Below, piece by piece: positions 1-10,540 of a stretch of DNA of 64,000 nt (its first letter is position 1; every line of letters begins with the position of its first letter). The notes under the pieces are model-generated. The model had not been told where the DNA came from, ran no database searches, and saw only the letters and a program-made list of their open reading frames with translations. Origin of the DNA: Hormoscilla sp. (GTDB lineage: Bacteria; Cyanobacteriota; Cyanobacteriia; Cyanobacteriales; Desertifilaceae); contig JBFRWI010000174.1 of NCBI GenBank assembly GCA_051439505.1, positions 1-64,000 of the forward strand. Direction: 5' to 3'. A program made the position numbers and the translations under genes.

Positions 1-132
1 GTAAAGCGATCGCCTCTTTGATATAGGGCGGTTTTTTCAGTAGATGCTAGAAACTGGGTTTCTTCCCCAGCTTTGACTCGAAACCCGGTTTCTCAACTGA
101 CTCTCTAGGACGGTGCAAACCGCAGAAGTAAA

Positions 133-236
133 TAAGCTGTAGTGCATTTAAATTGCATAGGCAGATCGGCTGAGATCCTTGTTCTCAGGGACTTTCCCCA
201 TATAGAATTGCTGAATTTTGAATTTTGAATTGCTTA
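133..236. mobile_element. ~100-bp MITE-like element (TAAGC...GCTTA ends); related copies at 29949-30044 and 43531-43633
   Basis: The three copies share TAAGCAATTCAAAATT at one end and ATGCAATTT(A/C)AATG...ACAGCTTA at the other; this copy is inverted. Confidence 0.7.
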
Positions 237-466
237 ATGCTCTCCCCGAGTTGCGACTAAGTGCCTAGAAACCTACACATCTCTCATATTTGAGGTTAAA
301 TTAAGTACATTAGGTGCTAATCAATGTAATCCAAATATTATTACTTACCGTATTTTTACGCTTGACGATCGGAGTTATGTGGAGTGTATAGTTATAAATA
401 CGAAGTTAATAAAGCTAATGTAATGCAGCAAAAACCGAGCATTTACTGCTCAATAATAAATAAAGC

Positions 467-2299
467 ATGAATATACCCCAGCCCTGGAGGCGTTCCATGC
501 ATGGGAGGACATCGGTGAGTCCCTTAGAAGGTAGTAAAGAGAAGAGAAAATCACCTCGTACAGGACCCGAGGGCTGCGCCGTTTTATCAAAAGAGAAATC
601 CTCTGCCTTTGCAGGTTTAGAGTTGCCAACTACAACGGTTTTATGCGGCGGGTCTCAAGTTATTCCCAAGGTGACAATCTTGAGCAACAACTTGAAGACT
701 TGCGCTCACAATACCCAGAAGCGGAATTCATTTGAGAGATTGAAGTCCGGCTTAATTTTAGATGACGGAAATTTAAATCCATTCTGGAATGAATTGTCAA
801 GCAGGATATCCAGCGGCTTGTCGTTGCCCACCGCGTCAGAGGATGTCGTAAGGGATGGGAACTGGTTGAGTGGTATTGCTTATATAATGCGGTCCAACTC
901 GTGGTTCTCAACGAGCAACAACTTAGTCCAAAACAAGAGCTTGTTCAGGATATGTTGTCCATCATCCACCGTTTCAGTTATCGGTTCTACAGTTGGCGAA
1001 AGTACCGAAAAGAAATCAGCGAAAAAGTATGGGAAGAATCCATTCAAGAGAAGCCATAATGTCCCACCAAACAGTCTCCTGAAAATTCCTCTATTCCCCG
1101 AACCGGAACTGCATGTCATTTGGAAAAAATGGCTTGCAGCTTACCGTTGGGTTTACAATCAGTGTGTTGAATTTTACAACAACAATCGATCTTTATCCGA
1201 GGGACAGTCGTTAGACCAGTACATACAACAGTTACAAACGAACCCAAAAAACTCGTGGACAAAGTGCTTAGGGAATACCAGACAAGAAGCTGTTTGTGAG
1301 GCCCAAAATGCTAGTCGTCAATCTCGCAAAGCTAATGGGGGCAAGTGTTTTATGCGATTTCGCTCTTGCAGAAATAAGTCCCAAGCTATTCAGTTTAAGA
1401 ATACGGCTTATCGAAACGGAACGTGGTTCCGCTCGAAGATTCACAACCTACAGTTTACAGTTGCGAAAGGTTATGAATTGCCTATGAACTGTGTATACGG
1501 GACTGAGTTACTCTATCAACGGGGACAGTGGTTTGCTTGTTTTCCTCAATACGTTCGGGAGGTGACTACAGGCTCCGATCGGGTAATTGCTCTCGACCCG
1601 GGTAATCGCACTTTTATGACTGGCTACGATGGAGAAAATATCTTAGAGATTGGCAAGGGAGACATCGGGCGGCTAACCAGGTTGTGCTTGCACCTTGACA
1701 AAATCATCGGGACAAAAAAGAAAGCCACAGGCAAAGTACACAAGCGTTTGCGGTACAAGCTGAATAAAGCGATCGAGCGGTTGCGGTTTAAGATTAGATC
1801 GCTAGTGGATGACCTGCACCGGAAAGCCACGAATCTACTGGTCAATAGCTATAAGTTGATATTTCTACCTACTTACGAGACTTCACAAATGGTGGTCAAA
1901 GCCAACCGCAAGATTAATCGGAAGTCTGTCAGGAACATGCTGACTTGGGCTATGGGACGATTCGCTTCTCATCTGGAGCAGGCAGCAAAGCGGAAAGGAG
2001 TGCTGGTCGTCCGCTGTAACGAGGCGTACACTAGCAAAACTTGCCCCAAATGTGGCCACGTTCACAAAAAACTTGGGGGATCGAAAGTCCACAAATGCCC
2101 GGCTTGCGGTCATAAAGCACCGCGAGATTGGGTGGGCGCTCTCAATATCATGTTGAGAGCATTGCAGGCTGTTGCCTTCGATGTTAGAGATGGCGTTATC
2201 ACCATTTCTGACGCCGATGTTATACTTGCGCAGAGCAATATGAGCTTTGTGAGGGTTGAAAACAGCACTATAGGCGGTGTAGTCGGGGTTTTGGAGTGA
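467..2299 (+). CDS. tnpB: IS607-family TnpB, pro-Fanzor-like RNA-guided endonuclease with long N-terminal extension
   Basis: RuvC-I IALDPG; canonical RuvC-II Glu position reads IFLPTYE; alternative Glu in NEAYTSKTC; Zn finger CPKC...CPAC; RuvC-III PRD. The true start is uncertain. Confidence 0.85.
   Translation: MNIPQPWRRSMHGRTSVSPLEGSKEKRKSPRTGPEGCAVLSKEKSSAFAGLELPTTTVLCGGSQVIPKVTILSNNLKTCAHNTQKRNSFERLKSGLILDDGNLNPFWNELSSRISSGLSLPTASEDVVRDGNWLSGIAYIMRSNSWFSTSNNLVQNKSLFRICCPSSTVSVIGSTVGESTEKKSAKKYGKNPFKRSHNVPPNSLLKIPLFPEPELHVIWKKWLAAYRWVYNQCVEFYNNNRSLSEGQSLDQYIQQLQTNPKNSWTKCLGNTRQEAVCEAQNASRQSRKANGGKCFMRFRSCRNKSQAIQFKNTAYRNGTWFRSKIHNLQFTVAKGYELPMNCVYGTELLYQRGQWFACFPQYVREVTTGSDRVIALDPGNRTFMTGYDGENILEIGKGDIGRLTRLCLHLDKIIGTKKKATGKVHKRLRYKLNKAIERLRFKIRSLVDDLHRKATNLLVNSYKLIFLPTYETSQMVVKANRKINRKSVRNMLTWAMGRFASHLEQAAKRKGVLVVRCNEAYTSKTCPKCGHVHKKLGGSKVHKCPACGHKAPRDWVGALNIMLRALQAVAFDVRDGVITISDADVILAQSNMSFVRVENSTIGGVVGVLE
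469..1059 (+). pseudogene. tnpA: Decayed IS607 TnpA serine recombinase in an overlapping frame
   Basis: The +2 frame reads SLRR**REEKITSYRT (MerR-HTH-like), RVSSYSQ..LRSQYPEAEFI*EI..LNFR*RKF..LVVAHR..LSPKQELVQDMLSIIHRFS; it contains five in-frame stops. Confidence 0.8.
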
Positions 2300-2331
2300 C
2301 TAGAAAAAGGAAGTATTGTGGAGTATTGTTG

Positions 2332-5300
2332 ATGAAACCTTTAGAAGAAGCGACCTGGTATCAAGCGCTCACCTTGACTGAACGGATCCCATCTCTAGGT
2401 ACGAACCGGTTTGATGAGAAACTGGCAGAAAGTCGCCGGCAGCGTTGGCGATCGCAGACTCCTTTTGCCACGGACTCTTACTATCACCAACGGTTGGCAA
2501 TGGATGGGATGGCCGACCCTGAGTCCTTTGACTGTATTTTAGGGGAACCGACCGAGGCGCTGAAGGAGCGATCGCCGGTTCCTCCTACCTGGTTGAAAGA
2601 ACTGGAGAAGGCATTTGCTCGTACCGAACCGCCGGAGATCGAAGTTGTACCTCCTGCAAAATTACCACCGGGGAAAGAGTCGAGGGGCTTTCTATATGCC
2701 ATAGAACCCCTCCTTAGTCAAGGAATTGACCGCCTGAAAAAAGAAGTTAAAGCACTGCGATCGGGAACGGAAGCAACTGGGAAAATTCCCTTTGACCCCC
2801 TGACGGTAGTCCAGGAGGTTTGCTATCGGGAATTGCCCCAGCAATTGCTGCGGATGTTGAGTCAGACAATGGCGTTAGAACTAAACGTGGCCCGTTTGCA
2901 AGGACTGCTATCAGGAGACAGTCCTAGAGAGCGATTTTTGAACTTTTTAGAACGGGTGTACCGGCGAGAGGCAATGCTTTCCATCTTGGAAGAGTACCCA
3001 GTTTTGGCAAGAGAATTAGTAGTTGCCATCGATCGCTGGGTTAATTTTAGTCGAGAATTGCTTCAACACCTTTGTGCTGACTGGGATGAGATCTGCACTA
3101 CCTTTAGTCCCGAAGGGGATCCGGGCAGGTTAGTAGAGATCGAAAAGGCGGGTGACAGCCATCGTGGCGGACGTTATGTAGTTATTGCTAAATTTAGTTC
3201 CGGTTTGCAACTGGTTTATAAGCCCAAAGCCCTAGCCATAGATGTCCATTTTCAGGAACTCCTCACTTGGCTAAATCTGCAAGACGTTATCCCCCCCTTA
3301 AAAACTCTGAAAGTTATCGATCGCGGGACTTATGGATGGTGCGAATTTGTCAGGGCCGGCAGTTGCAATTCAAAAGCAGAGGTGGAGGGTTTTTATCAGC
3401 GGATAGGGGGATACCTGGCTCTCCTTTACGCCCTAGAGGCGACGGATTTTCACTCGGAAAACTTGATTGCAGCCGGAGATCAACCGGTTCTGATTGACTT
3501 GGAAGCTCTTTTCCATCCGCGCCGCGCCACAACTGAGAAAAAAGCATCGGTGTTTCTGGCAAGAAAGCAGATGGCAGATTCGGTGTTGCGGGTGGGATTG
3601 CTGCCCCGGCGAACCTGGGCAAATGCCGAGTCTGAAGGCATTGATAAAAGTGGCATCGGTGCCAAACCAGGTCAAATGAGTTCCAGACCTATCCGTGCTT
3701 GGGAGGGAGTGGCTACAGATGAAATGCACGTGGTTCGCCAGAGAGCGCAACTGCTAGAGGATCGAAATCGACCGCAGTTGCAGGAAGCTGATGTAAATGT
3801 CCTAGATTATGCAGAAGAAATTGTCAGTGGATTTGCAGCAGTTTATCAATGTTTGGCGGAACGCCGCTCTGAGTTCCAGGAATTTTTAACTCGCTTCGCA
3901 GGGGATGAGGTGCGGGTGGTTTTGCGTCCGACGCGAACTTATTCTTTATTACTGCAAGAGAGTTTCCACCCCGATGTCCTGCAAAATGCCCTCGACCGCG
4001 ATCTGCTCTTCGATCGGCTCTGGATTGAAGTCCAGTACGATGAGTATCTGGCGAGGTTTATCCCTAGGGAAAGATTATCTTTATGGCAGGGAGACATCCC
4101 CATGTTTACCACTCGTCCTAATTCCCGCGATATCCTGGGTAGCGATAACCAGCTATTTACCGATGGGTTCGATCGCTCTGGGATGGAACTGGTGCAAAGT
4201 CGCCTGTCCCAGTTAGATGCACGGGATTTAGCGCGACAAATTTGGTTTATCCGGGCTTCCCTCTCCACCGTAGCAATGGCAGAAGAACCGGCCCGATGGA
4301 AAGGATACGATTTGTTTGCACCCCAGAGAAGCTGCGATCGATCCCAACTTATAGCCGCTGCTAGTGCGATCGGAGACCAGTTAGAGTTGTTGGCTCTCCG
4401 CAGTGAAGAAGAGGCGACTTGGATGGGTTTAACCCTCGCAGGAGGTTACCATGGGACTCTGGCTCCTTTAACTTGGACTCTCTACGATGGCTTGCCGGGA
4501 ATGGCTCTTTTTCTTGCTTATCTGGGGGCGATCGCCGGAGAAGAACGCTACACCAAACTGGCGCGATCGGCAATGTCCGCCCTAGAACCTCAGATAAAAG
4601 AGGGGGAAGCCTTAATTCCGACAATTGGCGGCTTTAGTGGGTGGGGAGGGGTGATTTATACTCTGACGCATTTGAGTATATTGTGGTCCCAACCCGAATT
4701 GTTAGCTCAGGCGGTGCAGTTGGTTGAGAACGTCAACAGATTGATTGCCAAAGATGCATGTTTTGATATCATTGCCGGGGCGGCTGGATGTATTGCTAGT
4801 TTGCTTGCTCTATATCGTTGCGCCCCTGACGAGAAGGTGCTGGCAACTGCCATGGCATGTGGCGACCATTTGCTGAGCCAAGGGAAACCCCAGAATGAGG
4901 GGATTTGTTGGGTTCGCAATGATGGAAATTTTCCGACGACGGGATTCGCTCATGGTGGGGCTGGCATCGCTTGGGCATTGCTAGAATTAGCTGCCGTCAC
5001 TAACTGCGATCGCTTTCGTGAAGGGGCTAGCGCTGCTATTGCTTACGAACGGAGTCAGTTGGCAGGAGGGGAGAATTTGACCTATCCTCCCATCTGGTGT
5101 AATGGGATTTCAGGGATAGGGTTAGGTCGTTTGCATTCTCTTAAATACATGGATGATGCCCAAACCCGTAGGGAGATAAATACCGCAGTTAATGCTACTC
5201 TAGAACGGGGATTCGGTCTGAACCACTGCCTCTGTCACGGCGATCTGGGTAACCTGGAACTGCTAAGATCCGCCGGGGAAATTATTCCGTTCACCGAAAA

Positions 5301-5499
5301 TCAGATCGATCGCCTGACTGCTACAATCGTCGAAAGCATGAATAAGCATGGCTGGCTTTGCGGAACACTCTTGGGAGTAGAGACACCGGGGCTAATGATA
5401 GGACTGGCAGGTATCGGCTACGGACTGTTGCGACTGGCGAGTCCCGATCGGGTGCCATCGGTGCTGCTGCTAGCTCCGCCAAAGTGTGGCCAAAAGTAG
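2332..5499 (+). CDS. lanM: Class II lanthipeptide synthetase LanM
   Basis: Dehydratase motifs LVYKPK and TDFHSENLI..IDLE; LanC cyclase motifs GFAHG, WCNG, CHG. ATG 2332 is preferred over GTG 2296. Confidence 0.93.
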   Translation: MKPLEEATWYQALTLTERIPSLGTNRFDEKLAESRRQRWRSQTPFATDSYYHQRLAMDGMADPESFDCILGEPTEALKERSPVPPTWLKELEKAFARTEPPEIEVVPPAKLPPGKESRGFLYAIEPLLSQGIDRLKKEVKALRSGTEATGKIPFDPLTVVQEVCYRELPQQLLRMLSQTMALELNVARLQGLLSGDSPRERFLNFLERVYRREAMLSILEEYPVLARELVVAIDRWVNFSRELLQHLCADWDEICTTFSPEGDPGRLVEIEKAGDSHRGGRYVVIAKFSSGLQLVYKPKALAIDVHFQELLTWLNLQDVIPPLKTLKVIDRGTYGWCEFVRAGSCNSKAEVEGFYQRIGGYLALLYALEATDFHSENLIAAGDQPVLIDLEALFHPRRATTEKKASVFLARKQMADSVLRVGLLPRRTWANAESEGIDKSGIGAKPGQMSSRPIRAWEGVATDEMHVVRQRAQLLEDRNRPQLQEADVNVLDYAEEIVSGFAAVYQCLAERRSEFQEFLTRFAGDEVRVVLRPTRTYSLLLQESFHPDVLQNALDRDLLFDRLWIEVQYDEYLARFIPRERLSLWQGDIPMFTTRPNSRDILGSDNQLFTDGFDRSGMELVQSRLSQLDARDLARQIWFIRASLSTVAMAEEPARWKGYDLFAPQRSCDRSQLIAAASAIGDQLELLALRSEEEATWMGLTLAGGYHGTLAPLTWTLYDGLPGMALFLAYLGAIAGEERYTKLARSAMSALEPQIKEGEALIPTIGGFSGWGGVIYTLTHLSILWSQPELLAQAVQLVENVNRLIAKDACFDIIAGAAGCIASLLALYRCAPDEKVLATAMACGDHLLSQGKPQNEGICWVRNDGNFPTTGFAHGGAGIAWALLELAAVTNCDRFREGASAAIAYERSQLAGGENLTYPPIWCNGISGIGLGRLHSLKYMDDAQTRREINTAVNATLERGFGLNHCLCHGDLGNLELLRSAGEIIPFTENQIDRLTATIVESMNKHGWLCGTLLGVETPGLMIGLAGIGYGLLRLASPDRVPSVLLLAPPKCGQK

Positions 5500-5519
5500 T
5501 TGCAGCGGGGGATCTCCCC

Positions 5520-5773
5520 CAATACTTCTCGGTTAACAACCTGTCATTGCGAGGGGGAAACCTAAACCGATAATTTAGGGCTCGCCGTCGAGATCCCCCG
5601 AAGCAATCTCACCGACGGCGCCGAAGCGCTTTTCCTCTCATAGGTCGCGGGGGGATTGCTTCGGGGGGGGATTGCTTCGTGCCTCGCAACGCTGCGCGAC
5701 TCAAGAAAGCATAAGTTAATCGCTACGTACCCCCCTCGCAATGACAACCTATATGCTTAACCGAGAGGTATTG
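5520..5773. mobile_element. MITE with 17-bp terminal inverted repeats enclosing a GTCATTGCGAG...CTCGCAATGAC palindrome
   Basis: CAATACTTCTCGGTTAA (5520) and TTAACCGAGAGGTATTG (5757-5773); inner inverted repeat at about 5542 and 5731. Confidence 0.7.
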
Positions 5774-5812
5774 TGACCACACCCGGTGTTAGCCTATGAT
5801 TTGCGTATTTTC

Positions 5813-7105
5813 TCAGAAAAGCTCTAGCTGAATTTGTTTAGCTGCACGAGAGCTAAAATACGCTGGCTCGTATTTTCTTGTTTCCTGCCACGTAGCATAA
5901 ACACAATACTCGAACAGTTCTTTCTTGCTGTTTCGTTTTCTGACTATCTTGCTTCCAATGTTGGTAAATCCTAAAGATCTAAGGGAATCTTCAAGCAACT
6001 GTTCGGTGTGGACTTGTACGCCATAAAAGCTAGAATTACCTACGATGTAAGAAAGAACCGCGCCCTTTTTCAAACGCGGACGCAAGTTCTGAAGATGCAA
6101 ATGCATGTCATGAAAATACTTCCAAACATAGTTCCCCATCAGTAAGGCATTTTTTTCTTTCGTTTGAAGTATGTCAGAAACAACTGCTTTCAATGATTCC
6201 GGTAGTTCAATAGCATTTGATTCCCAATACTGCAATCTGCTAGTGGCAATACCCCATGTTCCACCTATTGCTTTCCAATCAAGTTCACCCGCTTCACGGG
6301 CGGTATCAAGAAACTTAGTCCAATACATGTATGGCCTCAGTTCGCGAATGTAACTTATTCTGTTCGGGTAAGGAGGAGACGTGATAACATGGGAATATTG
6401 AAAATCGCCAATTGAAGTAGGTTCCCTTGAATCTACAAAATGAACGGACGAATTACCAGATATATTCTCACCAGCACTTTGAATAATTGCTTCTAATATC
6501 TCCAGGTACAAATATTCTATCTGTTCAATTTCAAACGCGGTTACTTCATTATGAAATGACATTGAAACATGATTAAAAGCAGCAGATGAGGTTTCAATGA
6601 TTAGCCGACAGAATGAAATCCAAGCAAGAGATGAAACATGGTTGTCCCTTGGTTCTCCAAACTGATTCACCAATGCTTGACGAAGTGCGCCAAGAACTTT
6701 AAGCGTCTGTCCGCACCACCATCTTTTAATGTTGTGAATGTTTGGCAACCAGTTATCTTCATCCACAAGTTCTTGCCATTTAATAATAACTTTGTAAATG
6801 GATATTTTTAATTCCTTAATTTCGGAATAAGAGTAGTTTATACATTTAGAATTCCCGAGCCATATTAAAAACGGGTTGATATCAAAGCAGTGTGCAGAAA
6901 TGCCATGTTCGGCAGCGACAAGTCCAGTTGTTGCTGTTCCTGAAAACGGGTCAAGTATAAAAGAATCTTCAGGAAGATTCTCAATTATCTCTTCAACCAG
7001 TTTGACCGAATATGCGGGAGTCAGCCGCAACCATCCATGTCTCCCAAGTTTCTTGTTGTACTTGAACGTGTAGTCCGAACGTTGCTTAATCTTCATATCC
7101 ATCAT
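5813..7105 (-). CDS. Amino-DNA methyltransferase, probably m4C alpha class, of a type II R-M system
   Basis: Motif I DPFSGTATT precedes motif IV TSPPY; 4-bp overlap with the upstream gene. Confidence 0.85.
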   Translation of the reverse strand: MMDMKIKQRSDYTFKYNKKLGRHGWLRLTPAYSVKLVEEIIENLPEDSFILDPFSGTATTGLVAAEHGISAHCFDINPFLIWLGNSKCINYSYSEIKELKISIYKVIIKWQELVDEDNWLPNIHNIKRWWCGQTLKVLGALRQALVNQFGEPRDNHVSSLAWISFCRLIIETSSAAFNHVSMSFHNEVTAFEIEQIEYLYLEILEAIIQSAGENISGNSSVHFVDSREPTSIGDFQYSHVITSPPYPNRISYIRELRPYMYWTKFLDTAREAGELDWKAIGGTWGIATSRLQYWESNAIELPESLKAVVSDILQTKEKNALLMGNYVWKYFHDMHLHLQNLRPRLKKGAVLSYIVGNSSFYGVQVHTEQLLEDSLRSLGFTNIGSKIVRKRNSKKELFEYCVYATWQETRKYEPAYFSSRAAKQIQLELF

Positions 7106-7911
7106 TCAGCACTCAGCAGGGTTTCAAGGACATCGTGGATTTCTTCTTTTATCTCTGTACTGTGTTGCTGGAAGAAAGCAGCCAAGTTATAACCGAGAAT
7201 TTGTTCGCAAAATGCGTACAATGATGTTTTGTTGTTGCCGTTTGTTGTACCGATAAGAATACCGCAACGGTTGTTTCTGTATCTCAGAACAAGATCGGAA
7301 TCAATCTGTGACGAAAAAATAGCAAACACGGGCAGATAGTTATTTGCCCATGCTACGGTAGCATTATCAATATCTGCATTTTGACGTTTGGAATCCTTGC
7401 TTTTATAGCCTTGGCGGACTTCAAAAACAATTCCGTTTGATGGTTCCGACACTTCCGCCAAGTCTTCACAGTAGTCTGTTATCCAATGTTTGACATTATT
7501 AAGTACAGTTTGATTCTTTATTTCACCAAGTTCTAATCTACCATCAAGAGACAGTTTTTTTGCTTTTCCTGACTGTGTATGTGCCGTGTATGACCACGTT
7601 GCTAACTCGGGGTCTGTGTATCCAGTGGTATCGACCAGCACTGCACGAAATAAACGTTCGCAACCGATACCAATTTGACGATATACAGATGTCATTCCAC
7701 CCGCTGCACGGTGGGCGGAATACATAAGGTCAGTATCCAGACCTAACCAAGCATAGAATGGATCTGAACCATATAGGTGCTTAAATTGGTTTAGGGAAAG
7801 ACCGTCGTCATTTTTGCCTTGCCCAAATTTAGGTCGGTAGTCCTTGCACTTCCCGATCGGTTCCAGAAAGGTTTCAATGTATTTTTTTTCTTTCGTTTCC
7901 ATTTTTTTCAA
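7102..7911 (-). CDS. Putative type II restriction endonuclease
   Basis: Coupled to the methyltransferase; PD-(D/E)xK-like LDG...FEVR; AT-rich. Confidence 0.65.
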   Translation of the reverse strand: MKKMETKEKKYIETFLEPIGKCKDYRPKFGQGKNDDGLSLNQFKHLYGSDPFYAWLGLDTDLMYSAHRAAGGMTSVYRQIGIGCERLFRAVLVDTTGYTDPELATWSYTAHTQSGKAKKLSLDGRLELGEIKNQTVLNNVKHWITDYCEDLAEVSEPSNGIVFEVRQGYKSKDSKRQNADIDNATVAWANNYLPVFAIFSSQIDSDLVLRYRNNRCGILIGTTNGNNKTSLYAFCEQILGYNLAAFFQQHSTEIKEEIHDVLETLLSAE

Positions 7912-8008: not shown

Positions 8009-8392
8009 CCCCCTTATTGGGGTAGCGTTCCATGGTGCGATCGCCTAATATAATCCGACTGACCACAACTTTTACTACTTTACAGGCTACATTTCAATAA
8101 CCTCAACAGTAATTATACTTAATTGCAATCTTTAACCGATAAAATTTTATTTTGCTGTCAAGCAACCGATCGCCGAATCCAATCAGACTGGCTACAACCC
8201 AGTGTAGAAGGAGGAAAACTGTGGCGATCTATGACCACAGACCGGAAAATTATCAAAAGTTTCTTATCTGCACTTGACAGAAAACAGAAAAATGCGTTAA
8301 AATAAACGTGACTGGGATCTGAGCAGATGCCAGTCAAACGAGAGAAAAAAGCCAGATCGCAATTTCAAATTTACAATTACCAATCGCCAAAG

Positions 8393-10540
8393 ATGAAATC
8401 TCCAGTAGTTGTTAGACAGCACAATATAGAAGACTGTGGTGCAGCAAGTCTTGCTACTATTGCCAAATATCACGGGCAAATTTTTAGCATCACCCGCACC
8501 CGCGAAGCTGCCGGGACAGGACAACTTGGCACCACATTACTCAACCTCAAGCAGGGGGCAAAGGTGCTGGGTTTCAATGCCCGGGGCGTGAAAGTCCCAT
8601 TGGAATTAGTCGATAACCAGACCATACCCCTACCGGGAATTATTCACTGGAAAGGCAATCACTGGGTAGTATTGTACGGGCGACGGGGTAAAAAGTATAT
8701 TATTGCCGATCCAGTTGCCGGAATTCGCTCCTTATCTAGAGAAGAACTGGTTTCCGGTTGGAGTAATCGCGCTATGCTGTTACTGGAACCCCGTCCCGAT
8801 TTTTATCAAATAGCCGACGATCGAGACAAGGTTAAGGGTTTGTGGCGCTTGTGCGGACGCCTGTGGAACTATCGCCCTATTCTCGCGGAAGCGTTGCTGC
8901 TTAACTTCGCGATCGGGTTGCTTTCCCTCACTTCTCCATTTTTAATTCAACTCCTTACTGATGACGTGTTGATTAGAGGCGATCGGGATCTGCTGACGGG
9001 GGTGGCGATCGCGGTTTTGGTAATGAATGTAATTGCCATCAGCATCAGATTCGTGCAATCAAACCTAATTGCACATTTTGCCCAACGCCTAGAGTTAGAT
9101 TTAATTCTCGAATTTGGCAGAGTAATACTGAGTTTGCCCCTCTCCTACTACGAATCTCGTCGGAGTGGCGAAATTACGACTCGCTTGCGAGATATTCAAG
9201 AAATCAACTTCCTGATCTCTCAAGTTGGCGTTACCTTGCCCGGTCAATTTTTTATCGCCATAGTTTCCCTGGGCTTTATGCTGTTCTACAGTTGGCAACT
9301 GACGATAGTTTCTTTCTCGATCGCGGGCTGCATGACTCTCTCATTCCTAATTTTATTGCCTACGGTCCGCAATAAAATCAGGAAATTATTAGTTGTCAAT
9401 GCTGAAAATCAAGGGGTTTTAATCGAAACATTTAAAGGCGCGATCGCTCTGAAGACTACAAATGCTGCTCCCTACTTTTGGGAAGAATTTCAAAGCCGAT
9501 ACGGACATCTAGCTCGCGTGACTTTGCGGGCGACCCAACTGGCGATCGTTAACAATAGCTTCTCTCAATTCTTCTACAGAAATGGCGGGATTATCTTACT
9601 CTGGTTAGGGAGTACCCTGGTCATCAACAAGCAATTAAGTATCGGACAACTGTTAGCTTTTAACAGCATGAATAGTAATTTATTGACCTTAATTGTTACC
9701 ATTCTGAGCTTTATCAATCCCTTCACCCGCGCCCAATTGGCTACCCAACGGATTGCGGAAGTAATTGATGCCACTCCCGAGAGTCGAGAAGATACTCAAA
9801 AACCCGTAGCCTCCATTCCCGCTGATGCCGAGATTATTTGTACCGATCTCAACTTTCATCATCCCGGCAGAGTCGATCTACTCCAAGAATTTTCTCTCAG
9901 TATTCCCGGGGGAAAGGCGATCGCCCTGATTGGCGAATCCGGTTGCGGGAAAAGCACTCTCGCTAAACTTATTGCTGGTTTATATCAGCCCCAGTCTGGC
10001 AATATTCGCTACGGTATTTATAACCAGCAAGACCTTTCCCTGGATTGCCTGCGATCGCAGGTAGTCTTAGTTCCCCAAGATGCTCATTTCTGGAGTCGGA
10101 CGATTATTGAAAATTTCCGTTTAGCGGCTCCACAAGCTACCTTAGGAGATATAGTTCGGGCTTGCCAGATTGCTAGGGCCGACGAATTTATCAGTCAACT
10201 GCCCGACAAATATCAAACTGTCTTGGGTGAATTTGGCGCGAATATTTCCGGCGGGCAAAAGCAACGATTGGCGATCGCGCGGGCCCTGGTTACAAATCCG
10301 CCCATCTTGATTTTAGACGAATCCACTGGGGCCCTGGACCCCGTGAGTGAAAGTAAAGTGCTAGACAACGTATTGGGCGATCGCCAGGGAAAAACTACAA
10401 TTCTAATTAGCCACCGTCCGAGAGTCATCCAACGGGCCGATTGGATTATCCTGTTAAAAAATGGTCAACCTCACCTTCAAGGCACTCCATCCGATTTGCT
10501 CCTGATACCGGGGGACCATCTAGATTTCCTCAATCCTTAA
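8393..10540 (+). CDS. Peptidase C39-containing ABC exporter (LanT-type)
   Basis: QHNIEDCGAA and HWVV/DP C39 motifs, transmembrane domain, Walker A GESGCGKS, signature ISGGQ, Walker B ILILDE. Confidence 0.92.
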   Translation: MKSPVVVRQHNIEDCGAASLATIAKYHGQIFSITRTREAAGTGQLGTTLLNLKQGAKVLGFNARGVKVPLELVDNQTIPLPGIIHWKGNHWVVLYGRRGKKYIIADPVAGIRSLSREELVSGWSNRAMLLLEPRPDFYQIADDRDKVKGLWRLCGRLWNYRPILAEALLLNFAIGLLSLTSPFLIQLLTDDVLIRGDRDLLTGVAIAVLVMNVIAISIRFVQSNLIAHFAQRLELDLILEFGRVILSLPLSYYESRRSGEITTRLRDIQEINFLISQVGVTLPGQFFIAIVSLGFMLFYSWQLTIVSFSIAGCMTLSFLILLPTVRNKIRKLLVVNAENQGVLIETFKGAIALKTTNAAPYFWEEFQSRYGHLARVTLRATQLAIVNNSFSQFFYRNGGIILLWLGSTLVINKQLSIGQLLAFNSMNSNLLTLIVTILSFINPFTRAQLATQRIAEVIDATPESREDTQKPVASIPADAEIICTDLNFHHPGRVDLLQEFSLSIPGGKAIALIGESGCGKSTLAKLIAGLYQPQSGNIRYGIYNQQDLSLDCLRSQVVLVPQDAHFWSRTIIENFRLAAPQATLGDIVRACQIARADEFISQLPDKYQTVLGEFGANISGGQKQRLAIARALVTNPPILILDESTGALDPVSESKVLDNVLGDRQGKTTILISHRPRVIQRADWIILLKNGQPHLQGTPSDLLLIPGDHLDFLNP

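What the first reader, a model, noticed from the sequence alone, without database searches (positions are those of the whole stretch)
467..2299. Pro-Fanzor-like TnpB whose N-terminus overprints a dead tnpA
Seen: the rearranged RuvC (DPG, Pro at the canonical Glu, Glu just before the Zn finger) that is known for Fanzors and their IS607 bacterial relatives. The TnpB frame stays open over about 197 codons where the overlapping TnpA frame has five stops. At least two of these look like CGA>TGA changes at TnpB third positions (GAT, AAT), which are silent there. The PFWN..LPT..SNSWFS segment resembles, from memory, Fanzor2 N-termini. Inferred: selection keeps the overprinted domain after loss of transposition, possibly domestication.
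Basis: partly seen in the sequence, partly recalled or inferred. Interest (0 to 1): 0.72.

Follow-up and report, generated by a model that had tools for sequence, protein, structure and literature searches.

The report
Nuclease domain written inside transposase gene
This bacterial jumping gene writes the front of its RNA-guided DNA cutter in a second reading frame inside its transposase gene, a layout shared by working relatives in bacteria and giant viruses that probably explains where the extra front domain of Fanzor2 nucleases came from; this copy has lost its transposase but is not a domesticated gene.

Summary
In detail: a 610-codon pro-Fanzor TnpB (467-2299; DPG, Pro468, Glu519, Asp554) lies in the +1 frame over a dead IS607 tnpA (five stops, start lost). 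The reading needs correcting. The overlap is a family trait of working elements, not a result of tnpA death. In 68 non-redundant loci with intact tnpA (cyanobacteria, viruses, 9 giant-virus contigs) the +1 frame has 0 stops beyond codon 70 against about 637 expected, and PFW, LPT and SWFS are conserved beyond what TnpA forces. NSWF aligns to Asn82-Ser83 of mimivirus Fanzor2, which contact its guide RNA; the model matches that structure from residue 103. In 18 close copies, stops fall 72 in tnpA against 2 in TnpB, so the domain outlives tnpA. This copy alone shows that only weakly, and it has signs of decay. Domestication is not supported: ends are intact, flanks differ, copies sharing tnpA stops sit at different sites, and the genome holds an intact tnpA. 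Translation is not shown. I found no paper stating the overlap. This scan has reported the same overprint before on other DNA (8 notes); the decay series and the GAC target are what I add.

The parts
248..2268 (+). IS607-type element, 2021 bp, non-autonomous (dead tnpA, open tnpB)
   Evidence: Sister copies align from 248 and end at 2268 with different flanks
248..300 (+). Left end (starts GAG-TTGCGAC; the first bases probably come from the target)
   Evidence: 33 left-end matches in own and related genomes; empty site
460..1059 (+). tnpA pseudogene (MerR-type HTH + serine recombinase): start ATG>ATA, stops at 532, 535, 733, 763, 790, local frameshifts
   Evidence: 200-bit match to a profile of intact TnpA; the intact sister L219:659-1306 hits Pfam Resolvase, MerR and HTH_17
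467..2299 (+). tnpB, pro-Fanzor type, 610 codons, in the +1 frame of tnpA; ATG 7 nt downstream of the tnpA start site
467..661 (+). Predicted disordered leader (residues 1-65); frame kept but sequence scrambled by net-zero indels
   Evidence: pLDDT under 50 for 1-67; indels against the intact sister; +1 stops in relatives fall only in the first 67 codons
779..910 (+). Conserved core of the overprinted N-terminal domain: PFWN (779-790), L-x-LPT, NSWFS (896-910)
   Evidence: Conserved far beyond what synonymous recoding of TnpA gives, e.g. W 0.91 vs 0.29, P 0.91 vs 0.17, S-W-F-S 0.99/0.94/0.93/0.87 vs 0.16/0.24/0.36/0.09; NSWF aligns to ApmFz2 N82-S83-W84-Y85
1595..2128 (+). Rearranged RuvC and zinc finger: D377 (1595, DPG), P468 (1868), E519 (2021), C526/529/544/547, D554 (2126)
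   Evidence: Pfam PF07282 at 497-561
2120..2268 (+). Predicted omegaRNA scaffold overlapping the 3' end of tnpB (5' boundary is approximate)
   Evidence: 2090-2290 folds at z -4.41, 0 of 200 shuffles as good; short relatives match from 2120-2136 to 2268; no Rfam match; expression not shown
2269..2288 (+). Predicted guide (host flank just upstream of lanM)
   Evidence: Inferred from the right-end boundary and known TnpB biology; no exact 12-nt match elsewhere in the genome
2236..2299 (+). Read-through tail caused by a 1-nt deletion near 2235; runs past the right end and overlaps the possible lanM start GTG 2296
   Evidence: Sister C35 ends AQSQYELCEG-stop at the right end; pLDDT under 50 for 583-610
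2296..5499 (+). Flanking host gene lanM (class II lanthipeptide synthetase), not part of the element
   Evidence: Pfam DUF4135 and LANC_like

Best explanation
This is a non-autonomous copy of a cyanobacterial pro-Fanzor IS607 element. In this family tnpB starts inside tnpA, in the +1 frame, here 7 nt after the tnpA start. One stretch of DNA thus encodes the serine transposase and the N-terminal domain of the nuclease (shown for the DNA; translation inferred). The first ~65 TnpB residues are a loose leader. Residues ~105-150 form the conserved part, homologous to the RuvC-R segment of mimivirus Fanzor2, which buttresses RuvC and binds the omegaRNA pseudoknot (homology shown; function inferred from that structure). 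The domain most likely arose by overprinting the older tnpA gene (inferred). TnpB with a right-end omegaRNA should cut the empty donor site (predicted: GAC followed by the flank 2269-2288) and so restore the element by repair (inferred from known TnpB homing). When tnpA dies, selection stays on the TnpB frame, the old tnpA DNA is kept as nuclease coding sequence, and such copies still move with TnpA from an intact copy (pattern shown; trans-mobilisation inferred). The window copy is an early stage of this decay; whether its own TnpB is still active is about even odds.
For: Family-wide overlap: 88 intact tnpA ORFs, 68 non-redundant; +1 stops only within the first 67 codons, apart from one at codon 278 of L136's long tail; 0 stops beyond codon 70 against 637 expected under synonymous recoding, L136 counted over 210 codons; in 61 of 68 the same frame runs on to DPG; 38 of 68 have a +1 ATG within codons 2-10 and 66 of 68 have one before codon 95. 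Two ordinary IS607 tnpA genes of this genome have several +1 stops. Motif-level constraint sits mainly at TnpA codons 108-151. Profile alignment puts NSWF on ApmFz2 N82-Y85; N82 and S83 contact the pseudoknot (PMC11832414). Best structural match 9b0l, Z 21.2, rmsd 4.0, 409 aligned, model 103-571 on chain 53-518, while ISDra2 TnpB aligns only from 199. Decay series: 72 vs 2 stops (34 vs 2 distinct positions, binomial p 2e-7 with opportunity 0.55:0.45); differences at TnpB positions 1/2/3 against the intact sister go from 5/28/14 (stop-free L182) to 32/32/66 and 27/32/54 (copies with 10 and 8 stops). L002, L003 and L068 share six tnpA stops and the window copy shares two with L029, yet all have different flanks. 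Intact tnpA in the same genome. Viral loci show the end point: domain kept, tnpA frame gone, in six places on a quick tree.
Against: No proteomic or ribosome data; no Shine-Dalgarno-like run is evident before 467 and no + strand promoter was found; a database gene call of this copy starts at residue 141 (P0006, 470 aa). For this copy the overlap still carries the TnpA signature against the intact sister (15/31/22; TnpB-frame dN/dS 0.79), and three stops against none is within chance (about 0.17 by hand). This copy has a scrambled leader and a C-terminal frameshift. 7 of 18 copies carry frame-shifting indels in the overlap, which the stop count does not score. Loci were fetched by likeness to TnpB and ranked on full length (best 80 of 570 and of 144), and they are related, so the p-values overstate. 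Shared stops could also come from gene conversion; the trees of overlap and core disagree. The model is of low confidence over much of the N-terminal domain (86-104, 125-131, 167-190 under 50). The tree is a quick one with long-branch outgroups.
Confidence: 0.8

Rival explanations
1. The family story holds, but this particular copy is a recent double pseudogene: tnpA died lately and the TnpB frame is open only by inheritance.
For: Overlap differences still follow the TnpA pattern; three stops against none is about 0.17 by chance; leader scrambled, C-terminus read through, right end slightly changed.
Against: No stop in 610 codons; all catalytic and zinc residues kept; several indels in 467-661 sum to zero shift; the deletion near 2235 lies in a predicted hairpin loop and past the nuclease core; core dN/dS against sisters 0.03-0.12 where not saturated.
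Confidence: 0.3
2. The extension is not translated: TnpB starts at ATG 887 or near 1060 and the open +1 frame is a by-product of tnpA codon use.
For: A database gene call starts at 887; several annotated relatives are 390-420 aa; no translation data.
Against: 0 vs 637 stops and motif constraint that TnpA does not force; there is no in-frame ATG/GTG/TTG between 941 and 1200; the motifs survive where the tnpA frame has vanished; the homologous segment is ordered in the Fanzor2 structure.
Confidence: 0.05
3. Domestication: the host keeps this TnpB at a fixed locus with a fixed guide, for example to regulate lanM or another gene.
For: tnpA is dead, TnpB is whole, and the guide would be the sequence just upstream of lanM; one 16-nt near match (2 mismatches) preceded by GAC lies at G000:C193.
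Against: The nuclease triad is intact, unlike dead TnpB repressors (recalled); both ends are kept; every sister has another flank; no full-length lanM and no orthologous locus in four same-genus genomes, 94-97% complete; one of four near matches having GAC is within chance.
Confidence: 0.04
4. The overlap serves a programmed +1 frameshift that makes a TnpA-TnpB fusion rather than a separately started TnpB.
For: Fusion ORFs occur (L001, P0002, P0007; a 2-nt insertion shared by 4 of 18 copies); 2 of 68 loci have no +1 ATG before codon 95.
Against: 66 of 68 have their own +1 ATG before the motifs; the fusions are fixed DNA indels; the domain persists without any tnpA frame. I did not search for a slippery site.
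Confidence: 0.05

Closest known systems
Pro-Fanzor (TnpB2) of cyanobacterial IS607 elements (PMC10711439; preprint 10.1101/2023.08.09.552727; PMC10530073)
   Same: DPG in RuvC-I, Pro at the canonical Glu, Glu six residues before the zinc finger, IS607 serine recombinase partner, cyanobacterial relatives.
   Different: The passages I read do not mention an N-terminal domain written inside tnpA; the preprint's metagenomic set was limited to 350-550 aa, and this protein is 610 aa. This copy's tnpA is dead.
Acanthamoeba polyphaga mimivirus Fanzor2, ApmFz2 (PDB 9b0l; PMC11832414)
   Same: Best hit by sequence (E 4e-50 with the family profile) and by fold (Z 21.2); shares the N-terminal domain, with NSWF on N82-Y85 of RuvC-R, and a disordered leader before it.
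   Different: Viral protein of a eukaryote, about 20% identical; its domain is described as seen in no other TnpB structure, and the paper has no mention of TnpA or overlap. Its TAM is GGG; here the target is predicted as GAC. That its own tnpA is a separate gene is recalled, not tested.
IS607-family insertion sequences (PMC6188088; PMC13565253)
   Same: MerR-HTH serine recombinase followed by tnpB, no terminal inverted repeats, no target duplication; the two ORFs 'often overlap'.
   Different: Here the overlap covers nearly the whole of tnpA and encodes a selected domain; the junctions are GAG and CAC with an empty site GAC rather than GG.
TnpB-only derivatives (IS1341 type; IStrons that keep TnpB after TnpA loss, per PMC13565253)
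   Same: tnpA lost, tnpB kept, ends kept.
   Different: The tnpA DNA cannot be deleted here, because it codes for the nuclease's front; it decays in place by changes that spare the +1 frame.

Membership tests
Pro-Fanzor / TnpB2 | DPG motif in RuvC-I | tested here: met
   D377-P378-G379, invariant in 35 aligned proteins
Pro-Fanzor / TnpB2 | Canonical RuvC-II Glu replaced (Pro/Gly); alternative Glu six residues before the zinc finger | tested here: met
   P468 and E519 invariant; C526 follows after six residues
Pro-Fanzor / TnpB2 | RuvC-III Asp and C4 zinc finger | tested here: met
   R553-D554; C526, C529, C544, C547; PF07282
Pro-Fanzor / TnpB2 | Encoded with an IS607 serine recombinase | tested here: met
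   Dead tnpA here (200 bits); intact sister hits Resolvase, MerR, HTH_17
Pro-Fanzor / TnpB2 | Groups with Fanzor2 apart from canonical TnpB | tested here: inconclusive
   Quick tree of 67 rows: the window protein lies in a mostly cyanobacterial clade (support 100) inside a group with giant-virus proteins (99), but only two long-branch outgroups were used and no published reference set
Pro-Fanzor / TnpB2 | omegaRNA-guided, TAM-dependent DNA cleavage | not testable with these tools
   Only a predicted structured right end
IS607 family | No terminal inverted repeats and no target-site duplication | tested here: met
   The two ends are not inverted copies (sequence); an empty site of a 280-bp mini-element with the same ends shows one shared base only
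IS607 family | GG crossover dinucleotide (typical of most members, not universal, per PMC13565253) | tested here: not met
   Junctions GAG and CAC; empty site GAC in three genomes, one insertion event
Fanzor2 (eukaryotes and their viruses) | Structured N-terminal domain with RuvC-R segment | tested here: met
   Profile and structural alignment to 9b0l residues 53-130
Fanzor2 (eukaryotes and their viruses) | Basic thumb that grips target DNA | tested here: inconclusive
   Lys-rich stretch 180-198 aligns loosely to the thumb region; model pLDDT under 50 at 167-190
Fanzor2 (eukaryotes and their viruses) | Eukaryotic or eukaryotic-virus host | tested here: not met
   6.47-Mb prokaryote genome; nearest named loci are cyanobacterial. 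Not filed as Fanzor2
Domesticated TnpB (fixed locus, fixed guide) | Conserved locus and guide across relatives, loss of element ends | tested here: not met
   Ends intact, flanks all differ, no orthologous locus in G001-G004

The most novel reading that the evidence does not exclude
The RNA-binding N-terminal domain that sets Fanzor2 apart from other TnpBs was born by overprinting the transposase gene in the ancestor of pro-Fanzors and Fanzor2. It became needed, so it outlives tnpA: first as stop-riddled tnpA under an open TnpB frame (this copy and its sisters), then with no trace of the tnpA frame and, in some giant-virus-type loci, with a separate tnpA on the other strand. This would be a documented birth of a structured functional domain from an alternative frame, with every stage still present in nature.
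Probability: 0.7. Interest if true: 0.8.

Novelty: new variant of a known kind. Interest (0 to 1): 0.66.

Why it matters
Long same-strand overlapping genes with both frames under selection are rare in bacteria, and few overprinted products have a solved structure and known contacts. Here one does: the segment matches the Fanzor2 domain that binds the guide RNA. It gives a concrete origin for a domain called unique to Fanzor2 and a testable series from dual coding to independence. In practice, gene callers can truncate these nucleases (this copy is called from residue 141), so pro-Fanzors cloned from such annotations would lack part of the domain, and length filters can miss them. The domestication idea for this locus is not supported.

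Tried and rejected
Silent CGA>TGA stops as evidence of selection: rejected, forced by the frame offset. Domestication or lanM regulation: no orthologous locus, no exact 12-nt guide match elsewhere. Rfam, window 1-6000, E up to 1: no match. Pfam on residues 1-198: no family; Pfam on the two longest tnpA fragments of this copy: no Resolvase hit. Promoter scan 200-2400: 1 site, fewer than in shuffles. Repeat search in each end found no convincing TnpA-binding repeats. Expression: one RNA run (X1) holds contigs nearly identical to 793-943, 915-1067 and 1394-1706, but contigs from an RNA library do not show transcription, strand or start. Empty-site searches: L198 and L199 flanks gave none; L180 gave an imperfect one in a repeat. 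The careful tree did not finish; the quick tree is cited. Earlier-findings look-up by sequence gave nothing. Literature: six searches; none of the 20 papers listed holds 'overprint'. Not used: complex prediction, ESM Atlas, the representative-protein search, test_one_clade.

Full report
1. The observation. The ORF 467-2299 (+) encodes 610 residues. Its C-terminal two thirds are a TnpB: PF07282 at 497-561, D377-P-G, P468, E519, a C4 zinc finger and R553-D554. The frame one base upstream holds an IS607 tnpA remnant (200 bits to a profile of intact TnpA) with stops at 532, 535, 733, 763 and 790 and its natural stop at 1057; the TnpB frame is open throughout. None of 1876 long ORFs in this genome is open over 197 codons in the +1 frame. 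The tnpA start is also gone (ATG>ATA at 460), 7 nt upstream of the TnpB ATG. Only stop 790 is a clean silent CGA>TGA change, and silence is forced by the frame offset.

2. The element. Sister copies fix the ends at 248 and 2268. The nearest named loci are from Hormoscilla and other filamentous cyanobacteria. The genome holds two more long copies on C125, one on C35, a truncated one on C170 whose tnpA is intact (216 codons; Resolvase, MerR and HTH hits), and mini-elements of 280 and 352 bp with the same ends. For the 280-bp element, three of four same-genus genomes have the empty site, which reads GAC where the filled site has GAG on the left and CAC on the right (one insertion event). So this subfamily appears to target GAC, not the usual GG (PMC6188088, passages). 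The last ~150 nt fold stably (z -4.41) and are the likely omegaRNA; Rfam has no match. In this copy a 1-nt deletion near 2235 removes the normal stop, and the ORF runs 31 nt past the right end.

3. The overlap is a family trait. A search with residues 40-330 found 53 proteins among 1197 candidates, most of them covering the extension; S145-W146-F147 is invariant in the 35 that I aligned. I fetched 80 genome loci (best of 570) and 78 viral loci (best 80 of 144) and added 8 stretches of the window's genome. They hold 88 intact tnpA ORFs, 68 under 90% identical. In all 68 the TnpB match lies in the +1 frame; +1 stops occur only in the first 67 codons, apart from one at codon 278 of the long tail of L136, while the +2 frame has 4-32 stops. 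Recoding each TnpA at synonymous sites predicts 637 +1 stops beyond codon 70; none is seen (L136 counted over 210 codons). Two ordinary IS607 tnpA genes of this genome have several +1 stops. In 61 of 68 the frame runs on to DPG; 38 of 68 have a +1 ATG within codons 2-10 and 66 of 68 one before codon 95. Nine of the 68 are contigs labelled as giant-virus assemblies. The TnpB-frame residues are conserved in their own right, mainly at TnpA codons 108-151: W 0.91 against 0.29 expected, P 0.91 against 0.17, S-W-F-S 0.99/0.94/0.93/0.87 against 0.16/0.24/0.36/0.09. Caveats: the loci were ranked by full-length TnpB likeness and are related.

4. What the domain is. The family profile aligns to mimivirus Fanzor2 (9b0l) from its residue 77, with NSWF on N82-S83-W84-Y85 (E 4e-50). 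PMC11832414 (main text and passages read) describes an N-terminal domain, 53-130, seen in no other TnpB structure; its RuvC-R part (65-91) completes the RuvC fold, and N82 and S83 contact the omegaRNA pseudoknot; 1-53 is disordered. The model of the window protein (pLDDT 70, residues 1-67 under 50) matches 9b0l best (Z 21.2, rmsd 4.0, 409 aligned, model 103-571 on chain 53-518); ISDra2 TnpB is tied within 1 Z but aligns only from 199. Since TnpA is an ordinary member of a wide family and the domain is limited to this clade, the domain is the newcomer (inference).

5. What happens when tnpA dies. Of 39 candidate close loci, 13 covered too little of the overlap and 9 were duplicates, leaving 17 plus the window copy. 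Over 661-1056 they carry 72 stops in the tnpA frame and 2 in the TnpB frame (34 and 2 distinct positions); chances for a stop are about 0.55:0.45, p 2e-7 (overstated by kinship). Insertions were dropped for this count, and 7 of 18 copies have frame-shifting indels here. Differences against the intact sister at TnpB positions 1/2/3 are 5/28/14 for a stop-free copy and 32/32/66, 27/32/54 and 29/33/50 for copies with 10, 8 and 11 stops: selection moves from the TnpA frame to the TnpB frame. The window copy (15/31/22, dN/dS 0.79 in the TnpB frame) has barely moved, so it is an early stage and proves little alone. Viral loci continue the series: tnpA decayed but visible (L102, L104), then no tnpA frame under PFW and SWF-like motifs (L115, L117, L120, L128, L130, L154, L157), with a separate tnpA on the opposite strand in five loci. 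On a quick tree of 67 rows (from 128), the 10 rows without overlap fall in six places, two of them inside well-supported clades with overlapped rows. This fits an ancestral overlap lost several times, but the root is weak.

6. Not domestication. L002, L003 and L068 share six tnpA stops, and the window copy shares two with L029, yet all have different flanks. The simplest reading is spread after tnpA death with TnpA from an intact copy; gene conversion is an alternative, as the overlap and core trees differ. No same-genus genome of four has the locus or a full lanM. The guide region has no exact 12-nt match elsewhere.

7. Mechanism, shown and inferred. Shown: dual-frame layout, constraint on both frames, homology to the Fanzor2 domain, frame-biased decay, intact ends, a GAC empty site. 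Inferred: initiation at the +1 ATG, omegaRNA binding by NSWF, cutting of empty donor sites with restoration by repair (as reviewed in PMC13565253, passages), and mobilisation in trans. Not shown: any transcript or peptide (searches are uninformative).

8. Literature and novelty. The protein class is known: pro-Fanzor (preprint 10.1101/2023.08.09.552727, parts 1 and 3 of 7 and passages; PMC10711439, passages, with no occurrence of 'overlap', 'frame' or 'N-terminal'). I also read passages of PMC3627910, PMC10530073, PMC10432273 and PMC10691335; the passages shown do not describe this overlap. PMC6188088 says only that IS607 ORFs often overlap. Six searches found no paper stating that the Fanzor2 N-terminal domain is coded inside tnpA. 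I read no supplements, figures are not held, and subscription papers are missing, so locus maps there or in IS databases may show it. Eight earlier notes of this scan report the same overprint on other DNA; I had reached this reading before seeing them, and they are not support. Verdict: a known kind of element with a gene layout I could not find in print; new variant; interest 0.66.

Noticed in passing
window 2296-5499 and 8327-10537: lanM (DUF4135 + LANC_like) and a C39-peptidase ABC transporter suggest a class II lanthipeptide cluster; no precursor peptide was identified. No full-length lanM was found in G001-G004, only fragments.
   Followed up: partly
window 5813-7902 (-): A DNA methylase (PF01555, 429 aa) and a 266-aa ORF without Pfam family, whose stop overlaps the methylase start, sit between lanM and the transporter; they look like a restriction-modification pair.
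   Followed up: no
window 133-236: A dispersed repeat with many copies in this and related genomes lies just left of the element.
   Followed up: no
G000:C100 (L197:531-810) and G000:C169 (L198): Mini-elements of 280 and 352 bp with this family's ends and no genes; many similar matches in G001-G004. They may supply omegaRNAs with other guides to the full-length TnpBs.
   Followed up: partly
L001, L041, L176, L182 (equivalent to window 685); proteins P0002, P0005, P0007: A shared 2-nt insertion joins the TnpA N-terminus to the TnpB frame upstream of PFWN, giving apparent TnpA-TnpB fusion ORFs; P0005 and P0007 show similar fusions.
   Followed up: partly
L123, L128, L145, L154, L157: Viral Fanzor2-like loci where tnpA lies upstream on the opposite strand and no tnpA frame underlies the nuclease N-terminus.
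   Followed up: partly
G000:C193 near 1532: A 16-nt stretch with 2 mismatches to the predicted guide, preceded by GAC; probably chance.
   Followed up: no
window 2236-2299: The read-through tail of tnpB ends on the possible lanM start GTG 2296 (an ATG start at 2332 is also possible), so the two could be translationally coupled by accident.
   Followed up: no
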